Shown: in pieces, positions 7,251-61,253 of the stretch
How the letters are laid out: each line of letters opens with the position of its first letter
Numbering within the stretch: position 1 is the stretch's first letter
Assembly: GCA_964620905.1 (NCBI GenBank)
Contig: CAZUKA010000002.1
Location: 121,154 to 185,153 of the forward strand
DNA: 64,000 nucleotides
From: an uncultured Gammaproteobacteria bacterium
Lineage (GTDB): Bacteria > Patescibacteriota > Patescibacteriia > S139-126
Direction of reading: 5' to 3'
Notes under the pieces: generated by a model
What the model saw: only the letters and a program-made list of their open reading frames with translations
Database searches by the model: none
Told to the model about the DNA's origin: nothing
Program-made: the position numbers and the translations under genes

Positions 7251-7261
7251 CTCAATTAATG

Positions 7262-7341
7262 ACGGGACGGGCCTACATTACGAGATCCCTGCCTACCGCA
7301 GATAAAACCATCTCGCGTTCTATCCGTTGAACTACAGGGGC
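7262..7341 (-). other. tRNA-like 5' partial copy carrying a 23-nt insertion, immediately upstream of tRNA-Arg
   Basis: The D-arm, anticodon stem and variable region are identical to tRNA-Arg, but the acceptor 5' strand is different (GCCCCUG). A 23-nt hairpin-forming insert (GGUUUUAUCUGCGGUAGGCAGGG) replaces the anticodon loop. No T-arm or 3' acceptor strand follows. Confidence 0.4.
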
Positions 7342-7410
7342 AAAAATTATCAAAAATAAAAGCTCAAAGTGAGCTTTTAAATATTAACAGAAGCAATAGT
7401 AAGTTTCAAG

Positions 7411-28752: not shown

Positions 28753-29161
28753 CGTCAAAAACAAAAAGAGTCAGGAGGCCGTACGGCTCAAGTATGAGGG
28801 TGAGACGTATGAGACCATATCCAAAAAGCTCAAGACCCCAATTGATACCATCAAGAGCTGGTTTCGGAGTGAGGGGCCACTGCGAGAGGAGTACGACACC
28901 TATGCTAACGAACAGAACGAGCTTCGGCTTAGTGAGTCGAACCAAATCCTCAAGAGAAACATCCACACCGCCTCGAACATGCTCGTTGCCCTCATGGGAA
29001 GTCCGGACGATAACGTCAAATTTCGTGCCGTCAAAGAGATGCACGATCGTGTCCATGGCAGTCCCAAGCAGACGTTCGATCGTGAGGGACTGTTTGGCAC
29101 AGACATAAGCTATGAACAAATCCTCCGCAAAGCCAGAGAGAAACCCCCTCCAGATGGTTAA
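28739..29161 (+). CDS. terminase small subunit (putative)
   Basis: HTH-containing 140-aa protein (ETYETISKKLKTPIDTIKSWF) directly upstream of and overlapping TerL. Confidence 0.5.
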   Translation: MAKIDVKNKKSQEAVRLKYEGETYETISKKLKTPIDTIKSWFRSEGPLREEYDTYANEQNELRLSESNQILKRNIHTASNMLVALMGSPDDNVKFRAVKEMHDRVHGSPKQTFDREGLFGTDISYEQILRKAREKPPPDG

Positions 29162-30761
29162 AGACATCACCGAAGTGATGAGGATTTGTGATGCTGATCC
29201 GCAAACCTTCATCGAGCACTGTTTATCAATAAAAACCAAGAATCAGCAGACAGTTCTTTTACACCTGAATACCGCACAGACCATGATCCACGACAGGATC
29301 ACGGCACTCCGGAAACTAGGCAAGCCGATAAGAATGATCATCTTGAAAGCGAGACAGGAGGGGGTCTCCACTCTCTGCGAAGCTCTGATCTTCGAACGGA
29401 CTGCCAGATTCGAGAACACAAACTCGCTTATAGTCGCACACGAACCCGAATCAACAGATGCAATCTTTGCCATGAGTAAGCTCTTCTACGACTTACTGCC
29501 AACGTGGGCGAAGCCAATGCGTCGGTACGACAACAAGAAGCAGATGGTGTTCGAGAATCCGGAGGAGAAATCGAGAGCAAAAGACCCAGGACTGCGAAGC
29601 CGAATGGTTATCGCAACTGCCGAGAAAGCGAAAGTGGGTAGAGGTTTGACCCTCCACAACTTTCACGGATCGGAAGTGGCGTTCTGGAAAAACGCAAAGG
29701 AACTGATGCTCTCGGTACTGCAAGCAATCCCGAACCTACCGAACACAAGCGTGTTCCTAGAGTCCACTGCCAACGGATTCGGAGGTGACGGCGAATACTT
29801 CTACAAGACCGTGCAAGACGTACTTGCCGGTAAGAGCGAATTCGAGCTTGTGTTCCTGCCATGGCACCTGATGGATGAATACAGCACGCCATTCACCGGA
29901 GATAAAGAAAAGATAAAGTTTTCCGAATCTCTGGACGAATACGAAAAGAGTATCAAGGCATCCGCAAAGCTGACCCTTGAACAGCTCAACTGGCGACGCT
30001 GGGCGATCCAGAACCTGACCGGTGGAGACATCGAGAAATTCAAACAGGAGTACCCAGCCACGATCGAGGAAGCATTCGTTGCCTCAAGTAGGTCAGTCAT
30101 CCCGAAGCAGTACATCGAAGCCCAGGGCAAATTCACCCGAAGCCCGATACGAAAGCTCGACGACATCCTGATCTACGAGGAACCGAATCCGAAACACTTC
30201 TACAGCTTGGGTGCAGACCCGAGCGAAGGAATCGGACAAGACGACTCCGCAATCACGATCTTCGACAAGATGACCGGCAGAGAGGTGGGATCGTACATCG
30301 GACAGATACAGCCGGACTTGTTTGCCAAGAAAATCAAACAGGCGGCCGAACTCTTCAACGATGCACTGGCAGTAGTGGAAATAAACAATCACGGTCTAGC
30401 GGTAATCAACGCTCTCAAAGGCGAATACTCGAATCTCTACCAACGCACGGTGTTCGATAAGCAGACGAATACCAAGCGCAAAGAGCTGGGATGGAAAACA
30501 AGCCAAACCACAAAGCCCCTCATGGTAGATGACTTCATCTCCGGACTCCGAGATGACGACATCGGACTCTCAAGTCAGACAACCGTAAGCCAGATGATGA
30601 CGTTCGTACACACGAATGAAAGCAACCGGTACGGAATGGGTGCAGAGAGCGGACAGAAAGACGATGCCCTTATATCGGCAATGCTCGCATGGCAAGGACT
30701 GAAAGAACTACCGAGCGAGATGCCAAACAGGAGAAAAGGTCGAGCAATGAAACTTTACTAA
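29112..30761 (+). CDS. terminase large subunit
   Basis: N-terminal ATPase region (ARQEGVSTL P-loop-like) and C-terminal RNaseH-like nuclease (GADPSEGIGQDDSAITIFD). Size and synteny are typical. Confidence 0.85.
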   Translation: MNKSSAKPERNPLQMVKDITEVMRICDADPQTFIEHCLSIKTKNQQTVLLHLNTAQTMIHDRITALRKLGKPIRMIILKARQEGVSTLCEALIFERTARFENTNSLIVAHEPESTDAIFAMSKLFYDLLPTWAKPMRRYDNKKQMVFENPEEKSRAKDPGLRSRMVIATAEKAKVGRGLTLHNFHGSEVAFWKNAKELMLSVLQAIPNLPNTSVFLESTANGFGGDGEYFYKTVQDVLAGKSEFELVFLPWHLMDEYSTPFTGDKEKIKFSESLDEYEKSIKASAKLTLEQLNWRRWAIQNLTGGDIEKFKQEYPATIEEAFVASSRSVIPKQYIEAQGKFTRSPIRKLDDILIYEEPNPKHFYSLGADPSEGIGQDDSAITIFDKMTGREVGSYIGQIQPDLFAKKIKQAAELFNDALAVVEINNHGLAVINALKGEYSNLYQRTVFDKQTNTKRKELGWKTSQTTKPLMVDDFISGLRDDDIGLSSQTTVSQMMTFVHTNESNRYGMGAESGQKDDALISAMLAWQGLKELPSEMPNRRKGRAMKLY

Positions 30762-30763
30762 AT

Positions 30764-32659
30764 ATGGCAACCACCAAACAATTACAAAAATATAATAGCG
30801 AGTACGACGAAGCGAAAAAGAACTTCGTGTACTATTTCAAACCCGAATTTGATCGGGGTTATAAGCTGTTCTCATCCTACAACGGCGATCGTGCCGCCGA
30901 GCTTGAGCTGACCAATGACGGTGAGATATGGCAGTCCAACGTTTTTATTCCCCAAGTATTTGCATACATCAAGACGTTCCTCCAAAAGACCGTCGGCATT
31001 ACCCCTGACTTCAAGCTCGAGGGAAAGAATAACGAAGCCCTCAAAGACCTGATCCTCTGGCTGTGGGAAGTCGGAATGAGTGACGACCTGATCGATTACT
31101 TCCTGCAAGTCTTTATCTGCGGAACGACCATTGGCAAAGACTTCCTCAAGAAAGAGACCAAGAAAAAGAGAAAGAAAGAGATAGGCATTGTCGAGAAAAT
31201 AAAGAAACTCATATTCAAGACCGAGACCTCCAAGATCACCTTCCGTCCTGACTTTGACCCCGTAGACATTTATAACTTCTATCCTCACCCGAGGATGAAA
31301 AAGATGTCCGACCCGTTCCCTGTATTCCACCGATACGTGCTGACATTGGATGAAATGAAAGCCCAATATCCAGATGTTCCATCGAGTAAGTGGACTCAAT
31401 TCGTAGACAAAGACGGAGTGGTTACAAAGTCCGGTGGAGATACAACCGACTACGCATACGTGCGAAAGGAAGTCCTGATCCAACTGCGTAAGAGTTTGAG
31501 AGAGACAACCAAAGCATCCTCACCAATCGAGGGCAACCCGAATAATCCGGTCCAAATGCCAATAACCGATGAGAAGCTCTTCGAGGTCGTAGAGAGATGG
31601 ACTGACGACATGATGACCGTATTCCTGACTATGGACGGAACACCGATCGAGATCAAAGACGGTGAGAACCCATACGACCATCAAGAGAAACCCTACTCTC
31701 GTACCGGCTTCTTCCCCCGAGCGTTCTCGTTCTACTGGCTCGGTATACCGAAACTGGTAGACCATTTGCAGGAACTCTTAAACTCCGTAACCAATCAGAG
31801 AGTGGATGCCATCACAATGAAAATCCACAGCATGATTGCCGCGGCACCAGTGGCTCTCCCCGGTTATAAGCAATCAACCATCAGCATACGACCGTTAGGA
31901 ATTCTGTGGACGAATGATCCAAACTCCGTAAGAGAGCTGAAGTTTGGAGATGTGAACTCCTCTGCGTTTATTGAGCCGGATCACATCAAAGAAGCAATGC
32001 GTATCGCAGTCGGAATCGACGAATACACAACCACTGCCGGTGCAGATAAGAGACAGACGGCAACCGTTGCCTCGTTCATGCGAGAAGCAACACTCGAGGG
32101 AGTAAAGCTTTTCCTGATCATGTTACGAGGTTCGTACATCACGCACTTTGAACACTGGATTTGTATGGTCAAGCAATTCTGGACAACCAAAGGCGTGATG
32201 CCAGACAAGGCCGTCGCAATTCTCATGCGTCACGGACTTATAACCCCTGAGACAGAAAACATCGAAGGACTCTTTGACGATGAATACGAGATATCCCTCG
32301 AATCAACTTCGGCTCTCGCTTCCTCCTCCGAGCTCAAGAAAGCAAAAGACTTGGAACTCTGGGATCTGATCAAAGAAGTAGACCAGATCGTGGATTCAGA
32401 AACCGGCACGGTGTACTCCGTAAAGAAATTCAAAGTCCTGATGAAGCTCTTTGAGGATTACGGCTGGGAACCGGACAACTACATCAGCGAAATAAAACAA
32501 CAGCCGGTCACACCTCCGGTTGACCCAATGACTCCACCGGAAACTGGAATACCGACCGGTGATGCACCTGCGATTGATACACCGCCCGATGTAGTGCCAG
32601 AGCAAGGACTCCCCGGTAACGAAATAGGTGCGATGCTCGGTAACGCAATGAAACAATAA
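30764..32659 (+). CDS. portal protein
   Basis: About 630 aa directly after TerL, acidic C-terminal tail. Called on synteny and size. Confidence 0.65.
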   Translation: MATTKQLQKYNSEYDEAKKNFVYYFKPEFDRGYKLFSSYNGDRAAELELTNDGEIWQSNVFIPQVFAYIKTFLQKTVGITPDFKLEGKNNEALKDLILWLWEVGMSDDLIDYFLQVFICGTTIGKDFLKKETKKKRKKEIGIVEKIKKLIFKTETSKITFRPDFDPVDIYNFYPHPRMKKMSDPFPVFHRYVLTLDEMKAQYPDVPSSKWTQFVDKDGVVTKSGGDTTDYAYVRKEVLIQLRKSLRETTKASSPIEGNPNNPVQMPITDEKLFEVVERWTDDMMTVFLTMDGTPIEIKDGENPYDHQEKPYSRTGFFPRAFSFYWLGIPKLVDHLQELLNSVTNQRVDAITMKIHSMIAAAPVALPGYKQSTISIRPLGILWTNDPNSVRELKFGDVNSSAFIEPDHIKEAMRIAVGIDEYTTTAGADKRQTATVASFMREATLEGVKLFLIMLRGSYITHFEHWICMVKQFWTTKGVMPDKAVAILMRHGLITPETENIEGLFDDEYEISLESTSALASSSELKKAKDLELWDLIKEVDQIVDSETGTVYSVKKFKVLMKLFEDYGWEPDNYISEIKQQPVTPPVDPMTPPETGIPTGDAPAIDTPPDVVPEQGLPGNEIGAMLGNAMKQ

Positions 32660-33997: not shown

Positions 33998-35221
33998 ATG
34001 GCAGAACCAAATCACATCATCGGCACGAGGAACACGCTGACTATTGAACAGTCACAACGTATTCCCGATGTCGACGACAAAATCTTCCTGCTTGAACCCG
34101 GAGAATCTCCGCTCACTGCTTTCTTGACCCAAATCGGAAAAATCGGTGACGGAGGTGGCAAGTTCAAGGGCATGGCTCTCCAAAAGAGAGTCGTGTACAA
34201 CCCGGAATTCACTGAGTACGAGGATCAGTATTCCGGAGTCTGGGCTCGGATCAACAACGGAGCCGGATACGCATCCGGTGACACAGCGTTGGTCGTAGAC
34301 AGCCCGGGCGCATCAATCTTCACCAAGTTCGACCTCATCAAGAACACTCGAACCGGTGAAATCATGCGTGTCACTTCGGTCAACTATTCCACGAACACCC
34401 TCACGGTAGCTCGTGGAGCCGGTGCGACAGCGGCGGCCGCCATCCTAGATGACGACTGGCTGTTGGTCATCGGTCCCGCCTTTGAGGAAGGGTCTAAGTC
34501 TGGCGATTCCAACACGACCAAACTCGTGAAGGTAACCAACTACACCCAAATCTTCAAGACCAAATTCGGCGTCACCCAAACCGAGAACGCTTCGAAGCTC
34601 TATCCGCAAGGCAACCCCGGTGCGGACTTGAAGTACCTGCGTGCAAAGCATGGTATCGAACAAGCAAAGAAAATCGAACGTGCGTACTGGTTCGGTGAAA
34701 AGAAAGAGGTCACCGGTCCCGATGGTAAACCGCTTCGCCTCTCCGGAGGAATTTTGGAAGCGATCATCGCCGCCGGCAACGTCCAGGACGAGGCGTCTTC
34801 AGCTTTGACCGAAGCGGAATTCCGATCGTTCCTGCAGAACTATGCGTTCAAGTACGGATCAGCCGAGAAGTATTTCTTCTGCGGTAACACCGTGCTCGGA
34901 TACTTGGAAAGCTTTGCAACTTCCAAGATGTACATCGTGCCGAACGACAAGACCTACGGAGTCGAAATCCGTAAGTTCCAGTCGTCATTCGGAACGCTGA
35001 ACATTGTTCGCCACCCGATGTTCGACAACCAGTATGCCGGCCTTGGCGTAGTGGTCGATCTCTCCACGCTCAAGCATTGCCCACTGAATGGTCGAGACAC
35101 TTCTCTCGAAACCAACATTCAGGACAACGATGCTGACGAGGAAGTCGATCAGTACAAGACTGAAGTCGGTCTACAGAGAGTCAACTTCGAAAAGAACGCA
35201 TTGCTCAAAGGCGTCGCCTAA
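33998..35221 (+). CDS. major capsid protein
   Basis: 407 aa directly after the scaffold gene, followed by a strong hairpin. Called on synteny and composition. Confidence 0.65.
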   Translation: MAEPNHIIGTRNTLTIEQSQRIPDVDDKIFLLEPGESPLTAFLTQIGKIGDGGGKFKGMALQKRVVYNPEFTEYEDQYSGVWARINNGAGYASGDTALVVDSPGASIFTKFDLIKNTRTGEIMRVTSVNYSTNTLTVARGAGATAAAAILDDDWLLVIGPAFEEGSKSGDSNTTKLVKVTNYTQIFKTKFGVTQTENASKLYPQGNPGADLKYLRAKHGIEQAKKIERAYWFGEKKEVTGPDGKPLRLSGGILEAIIAAGNVQDEASSALTEAEFRSFLQNYAFKYGSAEKYFFCGNTVLGYLESFATSKMYIVPNDKTYGVEIRKFQSSFGTLNIVRHPMFDNQYAGLGVVVDLSTLKHCPLNGRDTSLETNIQDNDADEEVDQYKTEVGLQRVNFEKNALLKGVA

Positions 35222-35241
35222 ATCGAATAAGCGTCTCTGCT

Positions 35242-35282
35242 CTTACTCGCTGGCTTTCACTCACGTGGAAGCCAGGAGTAAG
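35242..35282 (+). terminator. terminator-like hairpin downstream of the capsid gene
   Basis: 15-bp stem cttactcgctggctt / aagccaggagtaag. No clear T-run. Confidence 0.3.
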
Positions 35283-35323
35283 GGTGGAGGCCGAAATTAC
35301 AAATTAATCACCCAAACTTACTT

Positions 35324-35680
35324 ATGGCTAAATTCAATTCACACATCAAAAGTTTGCGAATCGTACTCAAGTCCGCCCAGCCGATATTCGAGGGAGGCCT
35401 CAAGGTCGGCGACACCCCGGGCGAGTACGCTCAATTCTCAGACGGACAATTCGAGACCGCAAACGAGGAACACGTTTCCAAGTTAGAGGGTCTCTCAACA
35501 TACGGCATCGATTTCTGGAAAGTTTCCGAGGAATCCACACCGATTGATCCGCCGACAGTCGACGGCGAACTGCAGAAACTCACCAAAAAGGAATTACAAA
35601 CCTTGGCCGGCGAGAAAAACGTCGAACTAGACGGTTCAGAAACCAAAGACCGCCTGATCGAACTCCTGCAGGGCAAATAG
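35324..35680 (+). CDS. hypothetical virion protein with SAP/Rho-N-like C-terminus
   Basis: KLTKKELQTLAGEKNVELDGSETKDRLIELLQGK resembles a SAP/Rho N-terminal motif. Confidence 0.4.
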   Translation: MAKFNSHIKSLRIVLKSAQPIFEGGLKVGDTPGEYAQFSDGQFETANEEHVSKLEGLSTYGIDFWKVSEESTPIDPPTVDGELQKLTKKELQTLAGEKNVELDGSETKDRLIELLQGK

Positions 35681-35715: not shown

Positions 35716-36495
35716 ATGGCAATCGTATCAGCAGACTTAAAAGAATATGAGTCGAACAGTGCCGACTCAGACGGCGGTGGAATCACGGCAACAGAAGTCG
35801 TGGACAACGTCGATAACAATCTCTTCACCGACATAACAGGCGACGAGGCGGCGGCCGGAGGCACTGAATACCGGAAATCCTTCCGCAAGAATACACACGG
35901 ATCACTTTCGTGGCAGAACGTCGTGACATGGCTTCAATCACAACCGACCAACGCCGCCCTCTCATTCGGATTCGGCATTGATCATGCAGATGATGTCGAT
36001 GGTGCTCAGGGAAACATGTCAGCGTTCTCCGCAAACGCTGTTGTCGCCGTCGTTTCCGACGGTGCAGACACAAGACAGGTGACAATCGTCGGCGAGGATG
36101 CATCTGGAAACAGACAGACGGAAAACCTGACACTGAACGGAACGACTGAGGTCGTCGGTGCTCTAACGTTCTCCAAACTCTACGGTGCATATGTGGCATC
36201 GCTTTCCGGATCACGCATCGTAACAATCCGACAAGGATCAGGAGGCACTACTCGAGGCACCATCGGAGTAAACAAAAAGACCAGCTTTATCTGGTACGGC
36301 AGACGTTACTCCGGAGGATCTCCAGTCGATGCCGAGGGTGGAAACATGGCAAGCAAACCAGCTGGCATGGGACACGGCGACATTGCGTCCGCTGGAAACT
36401 TCGGCATTTGGTATCGCCTGACATGGCCAGCCGGAGCCGGTGCAGTAACCGCTAATTCAAGCCAGGTTAAATCCGAGGGCGACACGGCGGCGTAA
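35716..36495 (+). CDS. hypothetical structural protein (Gly/Ala-rich)
   Basis: 259-aa ORF in the structural module. Confidence 0.4.
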   Translation: MAIVSADLKEYESNSADSDGGGITATEVVDNVDNNLFTDITGDEAAAGGTEYRKSFRKNTHGSLSWQNVVTWLQSQPTNAALSFGFGIDHADDVDGAQGNMSAFSANAVVAVVSDGADTRQVTIVGEDASGNRQTENLTLNGTTEVVGALTFSKLYGAYVASLSGSRIVTIRQGSGGTTRGTIGVNKKTSFIWYGRRYSGGSPVDAEGGNMASKPAGMGHGDIASAGNFGIWYRLTWPAGAGAVTANSSQVKSEGDTAA

Positions 36496-36514: not shown

Positions 36515-38068
36515 ATGGCTAAAACATTCTTAACAAAAAAGAATAACGCCAAGAGCACGATCACGGACAATCCTTTGACATCGGGTGCGACTACCGTGAA
36601 CGTGCAATCCGGCGACGGTGCAAAGTTTCCGGCGGCTCCATTCCACGCCACGCTCTATACGAGCGATCCGAGCGTGGGCGAAATTGTGAAAGTAACTGTT
36701 AAATCAATAGATGCATTCACAATCGAGCGAGCCAAAGAAAACACGACCGCCCAAGAATGGGCGCAAAACACCAAAATCGAACTCTTGGTAACAGCCAAGC
36801 TCTTTGACGACTTCCAAACCCGAACCGAGATCATTGTCGCAACCGACGGGTCGGGAGATTACAACTGCGACGGAACGGCTGATCAAACAGAGATAAACGA
36901 AGCGATCAGCAACTTGCCAGCCGGTGGCGGTATTGTTCGCCTAAAGAAAGGAACATACACACTGACTGGTCTCGTTGAAATTCTCAAAGACAATGTCGTG
37001 TTTGAAGGCGAAGGGGCGTCGACGCTTATAAAAGCGGCCAATGCCAGTAACCTCGGCGACATTGTGCGTGTGGGAGACGGCGGTACGACACCGTACTCGA
37101 ATATCGTCATCAGGAACCTAAAAGTCGATGGTAATCAAGCCAATCAAACCTCCGGAAATTCCAGCCCGATAGTGCTCTGGGGTACAAGCTCAAACAAGCA
37201 CAAACGAATTCTCATCGAGAACTGCTGGCTTACCGGTGCGCGTCTTGACTGTCTGAAAGTCATCGGCGTAGAGGAAAGCATAATCAGAAATTGCTTCATC
37301 CATGACAACACCGGAACTGGAATAGGTCTCTTCACCAACTCACAGCACAACACAATTACAGGAAATGTTCTGACTTCAAACGGCTACGGCGTGTATGACA
37401 GTGCATGCAATTACAACACAATAACTGGCAACGTAAGTCGAAGCAATGGTTATGGATTCTACCTGAGCGGTGCGTGGCGAGAAGCCATCACCGGCAACGC
37501 CATCTTCACCAGCACGAACTACGGAGTGTACATCGTCGGGGGTCAAAGGAATGCCGTAACCGGCAATCATCTCTACGGCGATAGCTGGGGAATGATTATC
37601 GGAAATAGCTCAAACATCACCAAGTACAACGTCATCTCCGGAAACACGGTCGCGTGGGCGACGAACCAAGGCATCGCTCTCTATCACGGAAGCGGTACCA
37701 CGATCAGTAACGTGATAACTGGCAATCACATCTTCGGATGCGGAGGTCATGGAATTTACCTGTACGGATCTTCCTACAACACTGTAACCGGAAACGCCAT
37801 TGATAACGCTTCCCGGACGACCAACAACACGTCCCATAGCATATTCCTCACTAATAATGGAACGGTCTATTCGACTTACAACGTTATCTCTTCGAACAAT
37901 TGCCACGCGACTCAAGCGAACAAGTCCGCCTATCACATCCGTGAACAGAGTACGAGCGATGACTTCAATCTAGTAATCGCAAATGTCTGCAAGGACGGAG
38001 TGACCGCACAGATCGGACTTCAAGGCACCAACTCAGTGAGAGGAACAAACATTCCAGCAACTGGATAA
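36515..38068 (+). CDS. tailspike/tail fibre with right-handed parallel beta-helix (pectate-lyase-like) repeats
   Basis: Repeated (N/I)TGN / NxxxxN-hairpin repeats (NTITGNVLTSNGYG, NAITGNAIFTS, NAVTGNHLYG, NTVTGNAIDNAS) are typical of beta-helix depolymerase domains. Confidence 0.65.
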   Translation: MAKTFLTKKNNAKSTITDNPLTSGATTVNVQSGDGAKFPAAPFHATLYTSDPSVGEIVKVTVKSIDAFTIERAKENTTAQEWAQNTKIELLVTAKLFDDFQTRTEIIVATDGSGDYNCDGTADQTEINEAISNLPAGGGIVRLKKGTYTLTGLVEILKDNVVFEGEGASTLIKAANASNLGDIVRVGDGGTTPYSNIVIRNLKVDGNQANQTSGNSSPIVLWGTSSNKHKRILIENCWLTGARLDCLKVIGVEESIIRNCFIHDNTGTGIGLFTNSQHNTITGNVLTSNGYGVYDSACNYNTITGNVSRSNGYGFYLSGAWREAITGNAIFTSTNYGVYIVGGQRNAVTGNHLYGDSWGMIIGNSSNITKYNVISGNTVAWATNQGIALYHGSGTTISNVITGNHIFGCGGHGIYLYGSSYNTVTGNAIDNASRTTNNTSHSIFLTNNGTVYSTYNVISSNNCHATQANKSAYHIREQSTSDDFNLVIANVCKDGVTAQIGLQGTNSVRGTNIPATG

Positions 38069-38074
38069 ACGCTT

Positions 38075-39376
38075 ATGTTCAACTCCTACCAATTCAACAG
38101 CGCAAGACTCAACGACACCGGCTCTTCAGCCGTGAGCAAGGCAATGAGCTACGTGCTCGACGTGTTCGGATTGATATCAAAGCCGGTCACGTATGTCTTC
38201 GATCAAGCGATAACAGTGGAAGCCATACGAACGTACCTGCTCGACATCAAAAATCTTGCTGGAAAAGTAGGAACGTATCTCATGGACGTGTACGCTCTCG
38301 CCGAAAAAGCTCTGACGTATGTCTTCGACATGCGAAGCCTTATCGACAAAACATCCACCTACCTCTGGGACGGACTGCAACTCATCACAAAGCAAATCAC
38401 ATATCTGATCGACATCATCGGCGGTGCTGTGATGACGATGACTTACAAGCTCGATGTACGGCAACTGGCAACAAAGAGTACGACATACCTGCATGACATC
38501 CTACTCACGATCGGACAGACGATAACTTACGTGTTCGACTCATTCCTGTCGGCCGCGCGAGAGACAACGTACCGGATGGATATAAGAAATCTTGCGACAA
38601 AGCTCACAACTTACCTGATCAATATCGGGGATGTGGTCGCAAAGATCATGACGTACAGATTCGACATGCGAAATCTAGCAAGCCACGCAACCACGTACCT
38701 ACTCGATCTTCGAAGCCTGATAAGCAAAACATGGACGTATGTGCTGGATGTAAGAAACCTTGCGACCAAGAGCATACAGTACCTGTTCGACATGGCCGGT
38801 GCTGTCAGCAAAAGCACTGAGTACGTGTTTGACGTGCTGATGAGTGCAATAAAACAGACGACCTATCTCTTCGACATGAGAAGCCTTGCAGAAAAAGCAT
38901 CAACATATCTTCTCGACATTCGAGGACTCATTGCAAAGATGATGACGTACATATGGGATATCCGGATGCTCGCATCGAGAGTGACGAGTTACCTGTGGGA
39001 CATCAAAAGCTTCGTGTCCAAGTCGATCACATACACATTCGACATCCTAAGTTATATCGCCAAAGTCTGGACGTACCAATTCGACATCCTGATTGGAGTC
39101 GGCAAGGTGTGGACGTATCTTCTCGACATTCGAGGACTGGTATCGAGGACGTGGAAGTACGTGTGGGACATCCTGAAAATTCCACCCGGTGTAAAGATCG
39201 CCATTGAATTCCTCTCGGCAAAAATATCCGTGCTCATGCTTTCCGCAAAAGAAACGCTGGGACTTACCACTGCCAAGAACAACATTGAGGTCAAAACTGC
39301 CCGAGCAGATCAACAGCTTCAGAATGCAAAAGCTGACGTGACGCTTCCGAGCAATAAGCAAAACATAAACTTATGA
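38075..39376 (+). CDS. tandem 14-aa repeat protein (TY-x-x-D-[IM]-R-x-L-A-x-K-x-x), likely fibrous virion protein
   Basis: More than 20 consecutive 14-residue repeats, e.g. TYLLDIRGLIAKMM, TYIWDIRMLASRVT, SYLWDIKSFVSKSI, TYTFDILSYIAKVW. Confidence 0.55.
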   Translation: MFNSYQFNSARLNDTGSSAVSKAMSYVLDVFGLISKPVTYVFDQAITVEAIRTYLLDIKNLAGKVGTYLMDVYALAEKALTYVFDMRSLIDKTSTYLWDGLQLITKQITYLIDIIGGAVMTMTYKLDVRQLATKSTTYLHDILLTIGQTITYVFDSFLSAARETTYRMDIRNLATKLTTYLINIGDVVAKIMTYRFDMRNLASHATTYLLDLRSLISKTWTYVLDVRNLATKSIQYLFDMAGAVSKSTEYVFDVLMSAIKQTTYLFDMRSLAEKASTYLLDIRGLIAKMMTYIWDIRMLASRVTSYLWDIKSFVSKSITYTFDILSYIAKVWTYQFDILIGVGKVWTYLLDIRGLVSRTWKYVWDILKIPPGVKIAIEFLSAKISVLMLSAKETLGLTTAKNNIEVKTARADQQLQNAKADVTLPSNKQNINL

Positions 39377-39687
39377 GCATAAAAATCGTACAAAACGACT
39401 CCCGTCCTCCACTGGAATTCTCCCTGACGCAAGACGGTGCTCCGGTAAACCTTACTGGATGCACTGTGAAATTCTACATGAAAAACGCTACAACCGGATC
39501 GGTAAAGATCAATGGTGTTGCGTGTACGATCACCGACGCAGTCAAAGGAAAATGCCGGTACAGCTGGACGGGTTCAGACACCGACACGGTCGGAACGTAT
39601 CTCGGTGAGGTCGAGGTCACGTTTGGCGACGGAAAGATTCAGACCGGCTTCAAACAATTATCAATCATCATCCGTGATGACATCTAA
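39373..39687 (+). CDS. hypothetical small virion protein (beta-rich)
   Basis: 104-aa ORF whose start overlaps the stop of the upstream gene. Confidence 0.4.
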   Translation: MSIKIVQNDSRPPLEFSLTQDGAPVNLTGCTVKFYMKNATTGSVKINGVACTITDAVKGKCRYSWTGSDTDTVGTYLGEVEVTFGDGKIQTGFKQLSIIIRDDI

Positions 39688-39693
39688 ACGCAT

Positions 39694-40326
39694 ATGAACC
39701 GAGGCGAAATAAGACAATCAATAAAAAACGAAGTCGACGATCAAACACTCGACGATACGATCTCAAACTCGTGGATTCAACGTGCGGATGAAAAGGTGCA
39801 AAGCTGGCGTCCTCCCGAGGATCGTGATCAGACATTCGACTACTGGGACTACCTCAAGACCGAACAGCCATACACGACGGTAGCCAACCAACCAAAATAT
39901 CCAGTTCCCGAAAATTACCGAGCGTTCGTGGAATTAAAGATCGGAACTGATACACAACCGTACACGCTGATCGACTTCCGAGCACGTACCCGATACACGG
40001 ATCACGTGGTGTACACACTCGGCGGTTCTTTCTACCCGATAACAACTCCGACTGCAGACGGCGACGCAATGATGCTGGTCTTTGTCCGCATATCGGATGA
40101 CTTCGCATCGGATAACGACGAGCCAGAGGTCGAAAAGTTATATCACCAAGCCTACGTCGAATGGGGCAAAAAGATGTACTACAACCAGCAAGGCGACACC
40201 GAGCTTGAACGCCAAGCTGATAACAACTTCGAACGGATCATGATCGGAAAATGGCGAGATCAAGAGCTTGCCCGAATGGCGTCGGCCGACGATCAAGCTT
40301 CAATCCCACGAAGCAGTCTCGTATAA
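39694..40326 (+). CDS. hypothetical structural protein
   Basis: 210-aa ORF. Confidence 0.4.
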   Translation: MNRGEIRQSIKNEVDDQTLDDTISNSWIQRADEKVQSWRPPEDRDQTFDYWDYLKTEQPYTTVANQPKYPVPENYRAFVELKIGTDTQPYTLIDFRARTRYTDHVVYTLGGSFYPITTPTADGDAMMLVFVRISDDFASDNDEPEVEKLYHQAYVEWGKKMYYNQQGDTELERQADNNFERIMIGKWRDQELARMASADDQASIPRSSLV

Positions 40327-40330
40327 ATCT

Positions 40331-42019
40331 ATGGCACTAGCAAAGAAAATCTGGAAAGCGTCACGATTCCACAAAGGCATTTCAAATCTGAATGCCGACG
40401 GTAGTTTTTGGTTTTCAAATGGACTCGACATAGACCAGTACCCTCCGTACATCAAAGTCTCAAATAAGTTTTTCAAAGAATCGGACAGCGTGTTACTACC
40501 AGCACTCGATGAACCGTGGGGTATGGCGTATTTCAACAACCGGTACTACATGGCGAACCGTAACAACGGAAAGATTTTTGAGAATACTTACTCCAGCTGG
40601 GTGGAAGTCCACGACAACGTGAACATCTGGGGAGGAAGCGGAATGTTTGCAGACGAGGATTATCTCTACTACGCCGGAAGTACGTGGATCGGACGCTACG
40701 ACAAAACCACATGGACGGACTCGTGGCAGTCGCTCAACGTTAATACCGCTTTTGATCCCGTACCAATCACAAAGTTTTTGAAATTCATCTGTTTCGGAAA
40801 CAAACAGTACATGGCGGCGTGGGATACGGCCGCAAGTTCATGGAATCCAAACCGGCTGACGCTTCCATCCGGATACGTCATTCGCTGGCTCGCTCCACTT
40901 ACCGACTATCTGGTGGTCTCTGCTCATCATGAGAGCCAAGGATCGGCATTGTTTTTCTGGGATGGATATTCACAAACCTATAACCGTGTCCTCCAGCTGA
41001 CGCAAACGGAATGCCTATCCGGTGTCGTCGATAAAAACGTGCTGTACATGGTGATGAGAGACGGCTGGATTTGCCGGTTCAACGGTGCAGGAATCGAAAA
41101 GCTGAATCGCTTCCCAGACATGGACTACCAAGACTATATCAACATCCTTGCTCAATGCGTAAAGGTGTACCAAGGCATGATCTACATCGCAAAAGCATCG
41201 AACACATTCGAAGTGACCCGACGCCATCAATTCTGCGGAATCTGGGTATTCAATCCTGCGACCAACGCCCTCTACTACAAACACCGGTTCTCAAACAATG
41301 CGGTCAATAACCACACCGGCGGTGTCTCAAGCGTGCAATTCCTATTCGTCGATCGAAACACGATCCGTGTCGGATATCGAGACAGCACGAAATACATCGT
41401 CGATGTGAACCATGACACCGGAACGTATCGGCCGTACGACTTCGGTGCGTACTGGGTCAGTCCACTTGTGGATGACGAACCGTATCTGCGAAAGAGATTC
41501 AAGCAAGCGATCTTGAACTTTATGAAGCCGATGCCGAACAGTAGCTTCTCTCGGTTTGAAGTGAAGTACAACACGAGCGAACGCTGGGTGCGAGACATGA
41601 AAAGTGTAAACAGTGGTGGTTCCGACTTCTGCATCCTTTCAAGTTTTCCGACTGGCATGGAAATCGGCGACGAAGTGATAGTAACGACCGGCGGTGCGGC
41701 CGGACAAACACGGCATATCAAAGCTATGGACACCGTAACCAAACGCATCGACTTTGACGAAACGCTTTACTATGTCGGCGGTTCGATCGGGACGATGTCG
41801 GCCGGTGACATGGTCATGATCACGCCTTTCAAAAAACTCGGAACGATCAAGGGAAACGAAAACTCCGGCAAGGTAAACAAGATGATCCGCTTCAATGCGA
41901 GGACAAAGAAAATCCAATTCAAGGTCGAAATTTGGAGTAACTCCGGCTTCGGTGGCGAGTGGGACATGGGTCTGAAAGATTTCTCCGCCATTTTTGTGCC
42001 GGATCGAATAATCAAATAA
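40331..42019 (+). CDS. virion structural protein (W/Y-rich, beta-propeller-like?)
   Basis: About 560 aa from the Met at 40331. The track ORF begins at 40268. Confidence 0.45.
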   Translation: MALAKKIWKASRFHKGISNLNADGSFWFSNGLDIDQYPPYIKVSNKFFKESDSVLLPALDEPWGMAYFNNRYYMANRNNGKIFENTYSSWVEVHDNVNIWGGSGMFADEDYLYYAGSTWIGRYDKTTWTDSWQSLNVNTAFDPVPITKFLKFICFGNKQYMAAWDTAASSWNPNRLTLPSGYVIRWLAPLTDYLVVSAHHESQGSALFFWDGYSQTYNRVLQLTQTECLSGVVDKNVLYMVMRDGWICRFNGAGIEKLNRFPDMDYQDYINILAQCVKVYQGMIYIAKASNTFEVTRRHQFCGIWVFNPATNALYYKHRFSNNAVNNHTGGVSSVQFLFVDRNTIRVGYRDSTKYIVDVNHDTGTYRPYDFGAYWVSPLVDDEPYLRKRFKQAILNFMKPMPNSSFSRFEVKYNTSERWVRDMKSVNSGGSDFCILSSFPTGMEIGDEVIVTTGGAAGQTRHIKAMDTVTKRIDFDETLYYVGGSIGTMSAGDMVMITPFKKLGTIKGNENSGKVNKMIRFNARTKKIQFKVEIWSNSGFGGEWDMGLKDFSAIFVPDRIIK

Positions 42020-43798: not shown

Positions 43799-46612
43799 AT
43801 GGCTTACATCAAAGACCCTAAAACTGGAAAGTATGTGAATACCGGTTCTGCACCGGCCACTCCTCCACTCACACCATCAGCACCATCAGCTGGTACTGCA
43901 GTGAAGTACCAAAAGAATGCCGAGGGAAAATTTGTGACGACTGAAGTTCCAAAAACGGCCGGTAAGCCAAACGTGACCACAGTCGAGGGACTACGTGATT
44001 TTGCTCTGCAAAATAACGTGGACGTCTCCTCCACTCAACCTAAAGAATCAACCCTGCAAAAAATACTCCACGTACTCAACACCGGAGGATATGCAGTCGG
44101 TGGCCTTATAAGTGGAAAAGGAATCAAAGCCGGAATCCAAGAACGCATTCAGCCATCTGAAGCACTCGGAATAAAAAGCAAAGTCGGTGGATTTATCGCA
44201 GACATTTTGCTTGATCCTACGACGTACCTCACATTCGGCTACGGGGCCGGTGCAAAACTAGCGACAAAGGCCGGTACAGTCGTGTTGAGCAAAGCTGGAA
44301 CATCAATCCTCAAGAAATCGATCCTTGAAGTCGGAGAGACTGCCGCCCGAAAAGCATTTGCAGAAAAAGTTCTTGCCGAGGGTGGTGAGAAGTTTTTAGC
44401 CAAAGGAGGTCTTAAATTTGCCGGTAAACAGATACTTCCACGATCGGCGGTCACTGCACCGTTCAGAGCGGCCGACTGGATCGCAGAAAAAACACCTGTG
44501 GTCGGCAAACTATACGAGAGTGCAAAAGACCTCGCAGGTAAAGCATTCGTACCGTTTAAGAGCATCAAAGAATTGCCGGGACGAATCGGAGAGGATTACG
44601 TTGATAAATTTTCACAATTTAGTAAAGCAACACGATCGGAAGTCAGTAAAGCTGTCGGTGAAGCAGTCGATCTTGGTAAGACAGCAACAAAAGAGCTCGG
44701 AAAAGATGCTGGAACTAGAGTCGGCCGACTGATCGAGGGAATGACAGACATTCCTGTAAAGACAGCCGCCGGAGTCGAGCAAGTAGCAACTAAAGGAAAC
44801 AGTGTCATCGACAATATCATCGGACACATTCAAGGCGAACATAAACGCTTTGCATCTTTAGAAAAAGAACGAGGACTGCTCGACACCGAGATTCCAGATT
44901 ATCTGCGTCACTACCTGACACCAGAGGGTCGTGAGTTCCTCGCAAAGAATACTGACGTTGCACAAGAGCTTCTGCAAAAGACGAGAGTAAGCACTCCGTT
45001 CGCAAAAGAAAGAAACCTCGATGACACGATCGTAAATATTAATAGTTACTTCCGCAAGACTCACGGCGTGAAGCTATTCGAGCAAGACGCATTCAAAGCG
45101 TTTGGTGCTCGTAAAGCCGAACACGTCAAAGCCGTGAATACCTACGACTTTCTGACTGACGTTGGAAAACAATTCGGCAAGCAAGCCGAAATGGTCACCA
45201 AAGAATTTAAGCATCCGATAAGTGGACAGATGGTGAAAAAAGAAATGGCAAAGCCAATCTTCGACAACGGAATGCGATACATCGAAAGCACCGTGCCTCA
45301 ACTCAAAGGCGTACTTCTGCCCGAACAGATCGTGAAGCATGTCGAGGAAACTTATAAGGTGCTAACGAGCGATGAAGCGACAAAGGGTTTCCTTAAAATC
45401 TACGACAAAGCTCTCGGATTTTGGAAAGGATCAGTGACCGGATGGTTTCCAGCATTCCACGTTCGAAACTCGATCGGTGGAGTTTTCAATAATTTTATAG
45501 CTGGAGTCAAAAACCCTGCACGCTATCTGCAGGGAGATCAAATCGCTCGGGGTGCAAAAGGATCGATCACAACCAAGCTGGGTACGAAATACACCTACCA
45601 GCAAATAAAAGAAATTGCTGAGAAGCTGGGAGTGGTAGGACAGCCCGGTTACTTGGATGTGATGCGTGAGGTCGAAAAAGATGTCGGTAAAGGTGCTGTC
45701 GGCAAACTTATGGATCTGCCGAAAAACGCAATGGAGATCACTGAGAACAGATTGCGTCTGCCTCTTTTTGTGGATCGCTTAATCAGAGGAGATGCACCAG
45801 AGCAAGCCGCAAAGTCTGTATTCCAATTCCACTTCGACTACGCACCGGAAGCACTCGCACCGTTTGAGCAGAACATTATGAAGCGACTGTTGCCGTTCTA
45901 CCGATGGACTCGTGGCAACATTCCGCTTCAGCTCGAGCAGATGGTAAAGCAACCGGGCAAGTATGCCTCCATCGGCAAGTTTGTAGACAACCTCCAAGTC
46001 GACAAAGAGAAAGCCAAAGAGGAATTCCAATATCTGCCTCCGTACATGCGTGAGGGATTGCCGGTCCGACTTGGTGAGAAAAACGGATTCTCACAGTACC
46101 TCTACGGTCTAGGTCTGCCGGTCGAGGATATCAACAGACTCTATAAAGGAAGCCCACAGCGAACGTTGGCGAGTATGGTCGGCGAACTATCACCGATCCT
46201 GAAGTATCCGATCGAAGCGGCCACCGGTCAGAACCTATTCACCGGTGAGCCGATCAAGGAAGGAAGCCGAGTCTATCCATTCGTGAATGCAGTCCCCGGA
46301 CTGCGTGACTGGCTTGAGGTTACCGAGCATAAAAATAAGGACGGCAATATCAGTTATCGAGGAAACGCTTATAAGCTTCACTTCCTCAATACCGCTCTTG
46401 GTCGCTTCTACACCACAGCTGGAAAACTTTCCGATGACAACACATCAGGAGTCGTGAAGTTTCTCTACGGACTCGTCGGTGCAAAAGCAAAGTCAGTCGA
46501 CATGGAAAAAGAAAAGTTCTGGCGTGATCGAGACATTCAAGATCGACTCGAGCAAGCGTTGGAAAGTAGAGGTCTCATCAACAGATTCGATTCGGTATAC
46601 GTACCAAAATAA
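43799..46612 (+). CDS. large virion protein (937 aa; possible internal/ejection or tail-associated protein)
   Basis: Largest ORF of the structural module. The Gly/Ala/Lys-rich N-terminal third gives no clear tape-measure periodicity. Confidence 0.45.
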   Translation: MAYIKDPKTGKYVNTGSAPATPPLTPSAPSAGTAVKYQKNAEGKFVTTEVPKTAGKPNVTTVEGLRDFALQNNVDVSSTQPKESTLQKILHVLNTGGYAVGGLISGKGIKAGIQERIQPSEALGIKSKVGGFIADILLDPTTYLTFGYGAGAKLATKAGTVVLSKAGTSILKKSILEVGETAARKAFAEKVLAEGGEKFLAKGGLKFAGKQILPRSAVTAPFRAADWIAEKTPVVGKLYESAKDLAGKAFVPFKSIKELPGRIGEDYVDKFSQFSKATRSEVSKAVGEAVDLGKTATKELGKDAGTRVGRLIEGMTDIPVKTAAGVEQVATKGNSVIDNIIGHIQGEHKRFASLEKERGLLDTEIPDYLRHYLTPEGREFLAKNTDVAQELLQKTRVSTPFAKERNLDDTIVNINSYFRKTHGVKLFEQDAFKAFGARKAEHVKAVNTYDFLTDVGKQFGKQAEMVTKEFKHPISGQMVKKEMAKPIFDNGMRYIESTVPQLKGVLLPEQIVKHVEETYKVLTSDEATKGFLKIYDKALGFWKGSVTGWFPAFHVRNSIGGVFNNFIAGVKNPARYLQGDQIARGAKGSITTKLGTKYTYQQIKEIAEKLGVVGQPGYLDVMREVEKDVGKGAVGKLMDLPKNAMEITENRLRLPLFVDRLIRGDAPEQAAKSVFQFHFDYAPEALAPFEQNIMKRLLPFYRWTRGNIPLQLEQMVKQPGKYASIGKFVDNLQVDKEKAKEEFQYLPPYMREGLPVRLGEKNGFSQYLYGLGLPVEDINRLYKGSPQRTLASMVGELSPILKYPIEAATGQNLFTGEPIKEGSRVYPFVNAVPGLRDWLEVTEHKNKDGNISYRGNAYKLHFLNTALGRFYTTAGKLSDDNTSGVVKFLYGLVGAKAKSVDMEKEKFWRDRDIQDRLEQALESRGLINRFDSVYVPK

Positions 46613-47984: not shown

Positions 47985-48013
47985 AATCCCTCCCTCTCCG
48001 CCAGATTAGCAAC
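47985..48013 (+). repeat. attR direct repeat (copy of the tRNA-Ser 3' end)
   Basis: aatccctccctctccgccagatt(A)gcaac. GC-rich phage DNA lies to the left and AT-rich host DNA to the right. Confidence 0.8.
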
Positions 48014-48046
48014 CTTTATTTCATTAAAGGTTTTAATTTTACCGTT

Positions 48047-60260: not shown

Positions 60261-60686
60261 ATGCCCACAATTCATCAATTGATAAAGAGACCAAGAAAAA
60301 CAAAAAAAGCCAAGTCTAAATCACCGGCTTTACAATCTACTTTCAATGTTTTGCGTCGGCACCGGACAAAATTACCCAAAGGCAGTGCTTTTAAGCGGGG
60401 GGTTTGTGTGAAAGTTACTACTACCACACCAAAAAAACCAAATTCAGCTTTGCGTAAAATCGCTAGAGTCAGACTTTCCAATGGTATGGAAGTGACAGCT
60501 TATATCCCTGGAGAAGGACATAATTTACAAGAACATAGCGTAGTAATGATTCGCGGGGGCAGAGTAAAAGATTTACCAGGTGTGCGTTATAAAGTAGTAC
60601 GGGGGGTGTTTGATACTCAAGGTGTGCAAAATCGTAAACAGAGCCGATCTCGTTATGGTGCTAAACGGCCAAAAGCAGAAAAATAA
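60261..60686 (+). CDS. rpsL: 30S ribosomal protein S12
   Basis: [13 protein letters not shown]...[10 protein letters not shown]...[16 protein letters not shown]. Confidence 0.95.
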
Positions 60687-60731
60687 TAAGCAATTCCTAA
60701 TACTTTATTCTTAATTCTAAATTCAAATATT

Positions 60732-61211
60732 ATGCGTGGAAAAAGAGCATCTAAAAGAAAAATAGAACCAGATCCAAAGTATCATTCTTTGGAAGTGGCC
60801 AAATTTATTAACCACATCATGTTGCATGGCAAAAAAGCCGTTGCTCAAAAAATTGTTTATGATTGTTTTGACTGGTTGACTTCTAAAACTAAACAAAAAC
60901 CGATTGAGATTTTTGAAAAAGCTTTGCGTAATGTCGCCCCAGTAGTAGAAGTAAAAGGTAGACGCGTGGGAGGAGCTAACTATCAAGTGCCTATTCCTGT
61001 AACCGGAGAGCGAAAAAACAATTTGGCTTTTAGGTGGTTAATCGAAGCGGCCCGCAATAAAAAAGGTAAAGCCATGTCACAAAAATTAGCCGAGGAAATT
61101 TTAGCCGCCACTAACAATGAGGGCGATGCTATCAAAAAGAAGCAAGATGTACAAAGAATGGCCGAAGCAAACAGAGCTTTTGCCCATTTTGCCAATTTTG
61201 TCAGACGCTAA
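60732..61211 (+). CDS. rpsG: 30S ribosomal protein S7
   Basis: Conserved S7 sequence directly downstream of rpsL. Confidence 0.93.
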   Translation: MRGKRASKRKIEPDPKYHSLEVAKFINHIMLHGKKAVAQKIVYDCFDWLTSKTKQKPIEIFEKALRNVAPVVEVKGRRVGGANYQVPIPVTGERKNNLAFRWLIEAARNKKGKAMSQKLAEEILAATNNEGDAIKKKQDVQRMAEANRAFAHFANFVRR

Positions 61212-61253
61212 TTAGTTCAATTATTAATTTTAAAATTGTAAATTATAAAAAAT

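What the first reader, a model, noticed from the sequence alone, without database searches (positions are those of the whole stretch)
38075..39376. Virion gene encoding more than 20 tandem 14-residue repeats
The 433-aa protein is almost entirely a 14-aa tandem repeat, TY-[LVI]-x-D-[IM]-R-x-L-A-x-K-x-x, a 42-bp period at the DNA level that has diverged at the nucleotide level. It sits directly after the beta-helix tailspike gene. Such strict short-period repeats suggest a fibrous beta-solenoid or alpha-helical-zipper rod, perhaps a fibre shaft or needle. The repeat copy number could vary between variants. I do not recognise this repeat family.
Basis: seen in the sequence. Interest (0 to 1): 0.6.

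Follow-up and report, generated by a model that had tools for sequence, protein, structure and literature searches.

The report
Unannotated 14-residue phage fibre repeat
A prophage gene encodes a protein made of 25 copies of a 14-amino-acid unit; the same unnamed unit is widespread in phage structural proteins, often attached to head-tail junction (neck) proteins, so it is probably the shaft of a neck-attached fibre whose fold has never been solved.

Summary
ORF 38075..39376 (+) encodes 433 aa with 25 in-register 14-aa units (aa 25-374) and no indels. The DNA units have diverged (48% identity) and the gene is under purifying selection (dN/dS 0.11-0.20). About 29 orthologues have 20, 25 or 26 units, always whole-unit differences.

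The unit, T-phi-x-[W/Y/F]-[D/N]-phi-R-x-x-phi-x-K-x-x, defines a large unannotated superfamily: 86 representatives among 1.84 billion proteins and 47 HMM-confirmed viral loci. It has no Pfam family, functional PHROG or PDB relative.

The arrays are fused to neck proteins (the T4-type gp15 of KVP40-like Vibrio phages; a head-closure protein), lie beside Neck1 genes, or carry lectin domains. A second unknown family, p259-like, co-occurs (15/47 versus 1/140 loci, p=2e-9) and is present in the window.

Here the gene lies between the tailspike gene and a translationally coupled BppU_N-like anchor gene plus the head-to-tail adaptor gene, in a 39-kb prophage, probably of a CPR bacterium.

Best reading: a beta-rich fibre or rod shaft attached near the neck. 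The fold and oligomeric state remain unresolved (AlphaFold pLDDT 45-57).

The parts
38075..39376 (+). Repeat protein gene (433 aa plus stop)
   Evidence: ORF list. Orthologues of 363, 433 or 447 aa in about 29 loci. dN/dS 0.11-0.20. A3-HMM score 288.6 bits; the only such ORF in the window.
38075..38146 (+). N-terminal non-repeat segment, aa 1-24 (MFNSYQFNSARLNDTGSSAVSKAM)
   Evidence: Outside the 14-aa register. 67% identical to the 56%-identity orthologue L007, so better conserved than the array.
38147..39196 (+). Array of 25 tandem 14-aa units, aa 25-374
   Evidence: In-register print-out, autocorrelation and unit composition. 51% identity to L007, with Y2 100% and D5 96% conserved.
39197..39373 (+). 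Conserved C-terminal tail, aa 375-433, made of about six 9-10-residue mini-repeats (xxAKxxxxx)
   Evidence: 78% identity to L007 against 51% for the array. Lag-9 autocorrelation 0.23 across orthologues. Candidate docking segment (inference).
39373..39687 (+). p104: stand-alone BppU_N-like domain protein, translationally coupled to the repeat gene (ATGA overlap)
   Evidence: Pfam BppU_N E=4e-12, 46.5 bits against a cut-off of 23.1. The ATGA junction is conserved in every one of the 20 metagenome loci where it can be read, and the same 4-nt overlap follows from the ORF coordinates in the window, L007 and L009. p104-like genes lie adjacent to array genes in 3 of 47 other loci.
35716..36495 (+). 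p259: member of an unknown protein family that co-occurs with array proteins
   Evidence: Homologues within 1-4 genes of the array gene in 15/47 array loci against 1/140 control loci, Fisher p=2e-9. Lies immediately after the gp15-array gene in KVP40 and F86. No PDB or Pfam assignment. The Bbp16 hint was rejected.
36515..38068 (+). Beta-helix tailspike gene (517 aa), immediately upstream
   Evidence: Pfam Beta_helix E=2.7e-25; N-terminus matches tail fibre phrog_8469.
39694..40326 (+). Head-to-tail adaptor gene (SU10-type), two genes downstream
   Evidence: Pfam SU10_adaptor E=7e-13, 49.9 bits against a cut-off of 27.

Best explanation
The gene encodes a virion structural protein whose body is a rod or fibre shaft built from 25 copies of a 14-residue, beta-strand-plus-turn unit. 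The unit belongs to a large and so far unnamed superfamily of phage repeat arrays that act as a modular spacer. In other phages the array is fused to head-tail junction proteins (T4-type gp15, a head-closure protein) or carries lectin-type sugar-binding domains. In this 39-kb prophage the array is free-standing. I infer that its conserved C-terminal tail, together with the co-translated BppU_N-like protein p104, anchors it at the adaptor/neck region, and that it works with the p259-like partner as a neck-proximal fibre (a whisker or collar fibre) that contacts the host surface or positions other fibres. Shown: the repeat, its conservation and selection, the superfamily, the fusions, the gene neighbourhoods and the partner association. 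Inferred: beta fold, elongated shape, attachment site, oligomeric state and function.
For: The gene is real and constrained. It sits in a podovirus structural module between the tailspike gene and p104 plus the SU10-type adaptor gene, with synteny conserved at 56-93% identity. Superfamily: 86 proteins at E<=1e-3, 22 at E<=1e-10, and 47 HMM-confirmed viral loci. Neck links: L019 array fused to head closure Hc1 (phrog_161, E=1.3e-7) and followed by Neck1; L004 and L006 array genes lie directly upstream of Neck1/tail completion genes; KVP40 and F86 gp15 consist of a T4 gp15 domain (PDB 4HUH, E=6e-53) plus a C-terminal array scoring 62-64 bits. Lectin or CBM accessory domains (Laminin_G_3, CBM_4_9, DUF2341) suggest an adhesion role. 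Partner p259-like is enriched with odds ratio 65, p=2e-9. The ATGA coupling to BppU_N-like p104 is conserved. Beta evidence: residue alternation, Gly at positions 8 and 11, Pro in 17% of units, Pro-Gly at positions 8-9 in the BUCT551 array, and an all-beta AlphaFold model once an alignment is given. The array is the fastest-evolving part of the module while its length is fixed within clades.
Against: There is no confident structure: pLDDT is 45 (single sequence) and 57 (with alignment). The fold search found nothing. No proteomic or imaging data show that this protein is in the virion or where. In a podovirus every fibre gene lies near the adaptor gene, so position alone does not separate a neck fibre from a tail fibre. 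Some arrays sit elsewhere: the BUCT551 array is at the C-terminus of the central tail protein. Most superfamily members have no context information. The neck seeds did not propagate to most of the 47 loci, so the neck link rests on five independent lineages. The roles of p259 and p104 are unknown.
Confidence: 0.55

Rival explanations
1. It is the shaft of a conventional tail fibre or a tail needle. It would attach to the tail through one end and reach the host with the other, with no particular relation to the neck.
For: It lies directly after the tailspike gene. BppU_N-type domains anchor receptor-binding proteins to tails in lactococcal phages (from established knowledge of TP901-1 BppU). 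The BUCT551 central tail protein ends in a related 14-aa array. PHROG families overlapping distant arrays are labelled 'tail protein'.
Against: There is no distal receptor-binding domain: the termini are the most conserved parts and the array the most variable. Tail needle genes normally follow the nozzle gene (general knowledge), and this gene precedes the adaptor gene. The independent fusions are to neck proteins.
Confidence: 0.2
2. It is a head fibre or capsid decoration. The p259-like protein would bind the capsid surface and the array would project from it.
For: The p259 and repeat genes lie between the major capsid gene and the adaptor gene, where decoration genes often sit. p259-like is the strongest conserved partner. 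Two p259-like members gave a faint Pfam hit to the capsid cement protein Bbp16.
Against: The Bbp16 relation failed a profile comparison (probability 0.3%), and the p259-family profile has no PDB match. In KVP40-type phages the array is covalently part of gp15, a tail-top/neck protein and not a capsid protein.
Confidence: 0.15
3. The array is an alpha-helical coiled-coil rod. Fourteen residues equal two heptads, as in fibritin-like whiskers.
For: The single-sequence AlphaFold model is all helix. Positions 6, 9, 13 and 2 can be read as a/d core positions. Some weakly matching arrays (phiNIT1 orf378, L001) look coiled-coil-like.
Against: That model has pLDDT 45. With a 65-row alignment the prediction becomes all beta. 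Position 4, which would be the exposed f position, is aromatic in 95% of units. Positions 1, 4, 6 and 10 are beta-branched or aromatic in 54%, 96%, 82% and 73% of units. 17% of units contain Pro, some sub-families have a fixed Pro at position 3, and BUCT551 has Pro-Gly at positions 8-9.
Confidence: 0.1

Closest known systems
T4 fibritin (wac) neck whiskers and other neck or collar fibres
   Same: An elongated repetitive protein encoded beside the neck genes. In KVP40-type phages the array is physically part of the neck protein gp15, encoded three genes after wac.
   Different: Fibritin is a heptad-based trimeric coiled coil with a foldon (established knowledge). This unit has 14 residues, is beta-prone and contains Pro and Gly, and shows no sequence relation. 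KVP40 has both wac and the gp15 array.
Triple beta-spiral shafts (adenovirus fibre, reovirus sigma1, PRD1 P5)
   Same: A short period (15-16 residues) with alternating hydrophobic residues in a strand followed by a tight turn. It serves as a spacer between an anchor and an adhesion domain (established knowledge).
   Different: The period here is strictly 14. There is no invariant Gly or Pro at the turn in this protein (Gly 20% at position 8). The signature is an aromatic followed by Asp/Asn. A trimeric state was not testable, and there was no PDB sequence hit.
14-residue beta-rolls (YadA head / Hep_Hag repeats; Lolium ice-binding protein)
   Same: The same 14-15-residue period, and precedent that such a period can build a single-chain beta-solenoid rod (established knowledge).
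   Different: The consensus differs (these have small-residue cores such as SVAIG or xxNxVxG). No Pfam hit. The core here would have to hold Tyr/Trp/Phe plus Ile plus Leu. AlphaFold did not return a solenoid.
TP901-1 BppU-type anchoring of receptor-binding proteins
   Same: p104 matches BppU_N above the Pfam threshold and is co-translated with the repeat protein, which suggests an anchor-plus-shaft pair.
   Different: Here the anchor domain is a separate 104-aa protein in a podovirus, not the N-terminus of a baseplate protein. The interaction is inferred only.

Membership tests
New 14-residue 'aromatic-Asp/Asn' array superfamily (defined here) | Strict 14-residue period over many consecutive units | tested here: met
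   25 units without an indel. In the superfamily the anchor spacing is 14 in 814 of about 1070 cases.
New 14-residue 'aromatic-Asp/Asn' array superfamily (defined here) | Aromatic or large hydrophobic residue at position 4, D/N at 5, aliphatic at 6, frequent R at 7 and K at 12 | tested here: met
   Window units: position 4 is F/L/W/M/I/H, D 24/25, position 6 is I/V/M/L in 22/25, R 10/25, K 17/25. Superfamily: aromatic 95%, D/N 97%, position 6 I/V/M/L about 92%. Note that in this protein the invariant aromatic is Y at position 2.
New 14-residue 'aromatic-Asp/Asn' array superfamily (defined here) | Significant match to a profile built from many independent members | tested here: met
   A profile built from window units alone finds 86 proteins at E<=1e-3 among 1.84 billion. 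The A3 HMM scores the window ORF at 288.6 bits; window blocks are 4 of its 65 rows.
Pentapeptide / hexapeptide repeat proteins | Period of 5 or 6 residues and a match to the Pfam models | tested here: not met
   Autocorrelation peaks only at 14 and its multiples. No Pfam hit at E<=0.01.
Heptad coiled coil (fibritin-like) | Continuous helix-compatible sequence with an a/d hydrophobic core and polar b, c and f positions | tested here: not met
   An aromatic sits at the would-be f position. Pro occurs in 17% of superfamily units. Residues are rich in beta-branched types. The AlphaFold model with an alignment is all beta. All of this is indirect, as there is no experimental secondary structure.
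Triple beta-spiral fibre shaft | A 15-16-residue unit with a conserved Gly/Pro turn; an obligate intertwined trimer | tested here: inconclusive
   The period is 14. Gly is enriched but not conserved at position 8. The trimeric state could not be modelled with the tools available.
YadA-like / Hep_Hag 14-residue beta-roll | A match to the Hep_Hag/YadA head motif | tested here: not met
   No Pfam hit, and the consensus is different.
T4 gp15 tail completion / connector family | A gp15 globular domain | tested here: not met
   The window protein has only 24 non-repeat N-terminal residues. The gp15 domain is present in the KVP40 and F86 relatives (PDB 4HUH, E=6e-53), which share only the array.
BppU_N domain (for the partner p104) | Pfam PF10651 match above the gathering score | tested here: met
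   46.5 bits against a cut-off of 23.1, E=4e-12.

The most novel reading that the evidence does not exclude
The 14-residue array is a new fibrous beta fold, and together with the p259-like protein it forms a previously unseen neck or collar appendage. This appendage would be shared by very different phages, from T4-type Vibrio phages (as a gp15 extension) to podovirus prophages of candidate-phyla-radiation bacteria, and would act as an additional host-recognition or sensing organ.
Probability: 0.3. Interest if true: 0.7.

Novelty: new variant of a known kind. Interest (0 to 1): 0.6.

Why it matters
Phage fibres and whiskers decide host contact, yet much of their repetitive shaft sequence is unannotated. 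This analysis defines a widespread repeat module that has no Pfam family, no functional PHROG and no solved structure. It links the module to neck proteins and to lectin domains, and identifies two conserved partner genes. Because the same array is part of gp15 in cultured KVP40-type Vibrio phages, its structure and role can be tested directly by cryo-EM, proteomics and deletion, without culturing the uncultivated host of this prophage. A profile of the unit would also improve annotation of structural genes in viral metagenomes.

Tried and rejected
1. Word-indexed homologue search with the whole protein found nothing. Local phmmer does detect L009 and L007 strongly, and an exact look-up did not find the window protein on record, so close relatives appear to be absent from that collection.
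2. PDB sequence searches with the protein and with profiles A1 and A3 gave no significant hit.
3. tblastn of the protein against GenBank phages found nothing.
4. Single-sequence AlphaFold gave pLDDT 45, all helix, and is uninformative. A 65-row block alignment gave an all-beta model at pLDDT 57. Its Foldseek search gave no significant match (best E=0.03, TM<=0.26) and should not be interpreted.
6. Of the 187 loci analysed from the three DNA-motif scans (W-D x4 gave 100 loci and [F/Y]-D x5 at least 120, plus seven family loci from the TYxxD scan), only 47 were confirmed by the A3 HMM. The other motif hits are other repeats or lie in other frames.
7. phiNIT1 orf378 ('minor head protein') and L001 match only the D-x-x-x-L-K part and look coiled-coil-like. 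I do not count them as members.
8. The Bbp16 capsid cement hint for p259 was rejected (hhalign probability 0.3%).
9. Covariation of deviations within and between units showed only local coupling in positions 7-14 and said nothing about topology.
10. Iterative searches seeded with neck, adaptor, capsid and portal proteins did not propagate across the 47 loci, so the neck association could not be quantified beyond five lineages.
11. Literature searches found no description of this repeat or of the KVP40 gp15 extension.

Full report
**1. Observation.** The ORF at 38075..39376 (+) starts with ATG and encodes 433 aa. From aa 25 the sequence prints in 25 perfect blocks of 14 residues, up to aa 374, with no insertion or deletion. 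The conserved positions are T1 (20/25), Y2 (25/25), D5 (24/25), L9 (14/25), A/I/V10 (24/25) and K12 (17/25). Autocorrelation at lag 14 is 0.34 against 0.07 for shuffles (z about 20). At the DNA level the units average 48% identity, and 36% at third codon positions. Tandem Repeats Finder sees only one 1.9-copy stretch. So this is an old array kept by selection on the protein, not a recent expansion.

**2. The gene is real and constrained.** Orthologues were found in viral contigs, genome bins and metagenomes, about 29 loci at 44-93% identity. In the loci where enough flank was fetched, the gene order is the same: capsid protein (407 aa), p259, tailspike (517 aa), repeat protein, p104, adaptor (210 aa). 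dN/dS is 0.11-0.20, against 0.05-0.08 for the tailspike and 0.06-0.07 for the adaptor. Against the most distant full-synteny relative (L007) the repeat protein is 56% identical, while its neighbours are 74-94% identical. Within it, Y2 is 100% and D5 96% conserved, the array overall 51%, the N-terminal 24 aa 67% and the C-terminal 59 aa 78%. The lengths found are 363, 433 and 447 aa, that is 20, 25 and 26 units, always whole units and constant within a clade. Irregular units keep their position across orthologues.

**3. Genomic setting.** The neighbours are:
- terminase large subunit and portal;
- an SU10-type major capsid protein (E=6e-40);
- a beta-helix tailspike (E=2.7e-25);
- a BppU_N-like 104-aa protein, p104 (E=4e-12);
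- an SU10-type adaptor (E=7e-13);
- further downstream, a LysM protein and an amidase endolysin.

The closest capsid proteins in GenBank phages are only about 28% identical. The element is an integrated prophage of about 39.1 kb. A 32-nt direct repeat lies at 8871-8902, overlapping the 3' end of tRNA-Ser, and again at 47985-48016. The bacterial rpsL-rpsG-fusA genes lie at 60261-63347. Orthologous loci occur in genome bins labelled Saccharibacteria and Kaiserbacteria, but also in one labelled Gammaproteobacteria. A CPR host is therefore likely but not proven. The stop codon of the repeat gene overlaps the p104 start codon (ATGA). This junction is conserved in every one of the 20 metagenome loci where it can be read, and the same overlap follows from the ORF coordinates in the window, L007 and L009.

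**4. A large unannotated superfamily.**
- Pfam has no match, PHROGs gives only a faint hit of unknown function, and PDB sequences give nothing.
- A 42-column profile built from the window's own units found 86 proteins at E<=1e-3 (22 at E<=1e-10) among 1.84 billion representatives.
- These carry forms of the same unit, for example TLKFDIRxxxEKTN, STLxYDVRxLAKT, TQLLWDIxNLVNKD, YTHIYNMRQLATKT and xxRWNVRAAVGR.
- Over 390 units, position 4 is W/Y/F in 95%, position 5 is D/N in 97%, position 6 is I/V/M/L in about 92%, position 7 is R in 41%, position 10 is V/I/A/L in 88% and position 12 is K in 58%.
- All ten checked members are unnamed or 'hypothetical protein'.
- DNA-motif scans of viral contigs, followed by an HMM check, confirmed 49 ORFs in 47 loci.
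- Among 29 complete proteins, 14 have an N-terminal globular domain plus a C-terminal array, 7 are nearly all array (like this one), 5 have globular domains at both ends and 3 have an array followed by a C-terminal domain.
- The recognisable accessory domains are lectin-like: Laminin_G_3, CBM_4_9 and DUF2341.

**5. Link to the head-tail junction.** Five independent lineages point to the neck:
- In L019 the array is fused to a head-closure Hc1 domain (phrog_161, E=1.3e-7) and is followed by a Neck1 gene.
- In L004 and L006 the array gene lies directly upstream of Neck1/tail completion.
- In KVP40-type T4-like Vibrio phages the gene order is wac, gp13, gp14, gp15, a p259-like gene, then terminase.
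- There, gp15 residues 1-222 match T4 gp15 (PDB 4HUH/3J2M, E=6e-53). Residues from about 225 to 450 or 504 are 15-19 units of xxIDW[S/N]xRxxVxSx, scoring 62-64 bits against the A3 HMM.
- In the window the gene precedes p104 and the adaptor gene.

There is a counter-example. The Aeromonas phage BUCT551 central tail protein ends in about 20 units of TAPYGLRPGVIADL, which may be related.

**6. Partner genes.** Clustering the neighbours of the 47 loci gave one dominant family: homologues of the window's p259. These are 160-195 aa and carry the motif NLFDDVSGxExxxGDTEYRC and a C-terminal GDTAA. They occur in 15/47 array loci against 1/140 control loci from the same scans (odds ratio 65, p=2e-9), always 1-4 genes away. 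The same family lies immediately after the gp15-array gene in KVP40 and F86, and it matches 54 GenBank records, 52 of them Vibrio phages. It has no PDB or solid Pfam assignment, and a faint Bbp16 hint failed. p104-like genes are adjacent to array genes in 3 further loci.

**7. Structure.** No confident model was obtained. The single-sequence AlphaFold model is all helix at pLDDT 45. With a 65-row, 84-column block alignment the model becomes all beta at pLDDT 57, and Foldseek finds nothing significant. The sequence favours beta strand plus turn:
- hydrophobic residues at positions 2/4/6 alternate with polar residues at 1/3/5/7;
- Gly peaks at positions 8 and 11;
- Pro occurs in 17% of units;
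- some sub-families have a fixed Pro at position 3, and BUCT551 has Pro-Gly at positions 8-9;
- when the spacing departs from 14 the commonest alternative is 17, and in the examples read the extra residues lie in the second half of the unit.

Whether the unit forms a single-chain 14-residue beta-roll (about 12 nm for 25 units) or an intertwined oligomeric fibre (up to about 33 nm at adenovirus-like rise) cannot be decided here. Both lengths are inferences from known folds.

**8. Interpretation.** The best-supported reading is a modular, beta-rich shaft that phages attach to neck proteins or to lectin domains. In this prophage it is a separate protein, probably anchored by its conserved C-terminal tail and p104 near the adaptor, and working with p259. 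Its function is probably host-surface contact or sensing, as for whiskers and collar fibres. The rivals are a conventional tail fibre or needle, a capsid head fibre, and a coiled-coil rod. They are less well supported but not excluded.

**9. Novelty.** Repetitive phage fibres are a known kind. This repeat family, its fusion to gp15-type neck proteins and its p259-like partner appear undescribed in Pfam, PHROGs, the PDB and the searched literature. It is testable in cultured KVP40-type phages.

Noticed in passing
window 8796-8902 and 47985-48016: A 32-nt direct repeat (94% identical) overlaps the 3' end of tRNA-Ser(GCT) and recurs 39,114 nt downstream. These are probable attL and attR sites of a 39.1-kb prophage that contains the whole structural module.
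   Followed up: partly
window 60261-63347: The bacterial str operon (rpsL, rpsG, fusA) lies to the right of the prophage. By eye the S12 protein appears to carry an unusual insertion after the N-terminal motif (compared from memory only). The host is probably a CPR/Patescibacteria bacterium, judged from the labels of bins that carry orthologous prophages, but one such bin is labelled Gammaproteobacteria.
   Followed up: partly
window 35716-36495 (p259): This protein belongs to an unknown family (conserved NLFDDVSGxExxxGDTEYRC motif and a C-terminal GDTAA) that is strongly linked to 14-aa array genes. It is also present in 54 GenBank records, 52 of them Vibrio phages including KVP40-type phages, as a 'hypothetical protein' between gp15 and the small terminase gene.
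   Followed up: yes
L268 5594-6946 (KVP40 gp15, NP_899598.1) and L269 5224-6738 (phage F86): The RefSeq product name for KVP40 gene 15 is 'tail sheath'. The protein is a gp15 tail connector/completion domain plus an unannotated C-terminal 14-aa repeat array of about 225 aa.
   Followed up: yes
window 39197-39373 (aa 375-433 of the repeat protein): There is a second, shorter periodicity: about six 9-10-residue units of the form xxAKxxxxx, highly conserved among orthologues. Other nearly all-array family members (L004/L006, L010, L017) also end in short tails with a different period.
   Followed up: partly
L024 3479-7795 (Aeromonas phage BUCT551 gp47): The central tail protein (1438 aa, encoded after the tape-measure gene) ends in about 20 units of TAPYGLRPGVIADL (lag-14 autocorrelation 0.55). 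This is possibly a Pro-Gly-containing relative of the same array.
   Followed up: partly
window 7219-7258 and 7310-7349: A 40-nt direct repeat (83% identical) includes part of tRNA-Arg(GCG) at 7176-7250. It may be the remnant of another integration event or a duplicated tRNA fragment.
   Followed up: no
window 30689-30761: The listed portal ORF (30689..32659) overlaps the end of the terminase large subunit ORF (29112..30761) by 73 nt. The true portal start is probably further downstream.
   Followed up: no
window 35088-35680: Two overlapping small ORFs lie between the capsid gene and p259. One (35324-35680) gives weak Arc-like/endonuclease VII PHROG hits. It is unclear which, if either, is a real gene.
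   Followed up: no
window 40268-42019 and 43799-46612: A 583-aa protein after the adaptor gene looks by eye like a beta-propeller nozzle protein but has no family hit. A 937-aa protein downstream of the LysM protein also has no hit in Pfam or PHROGs.
   Followed up: no
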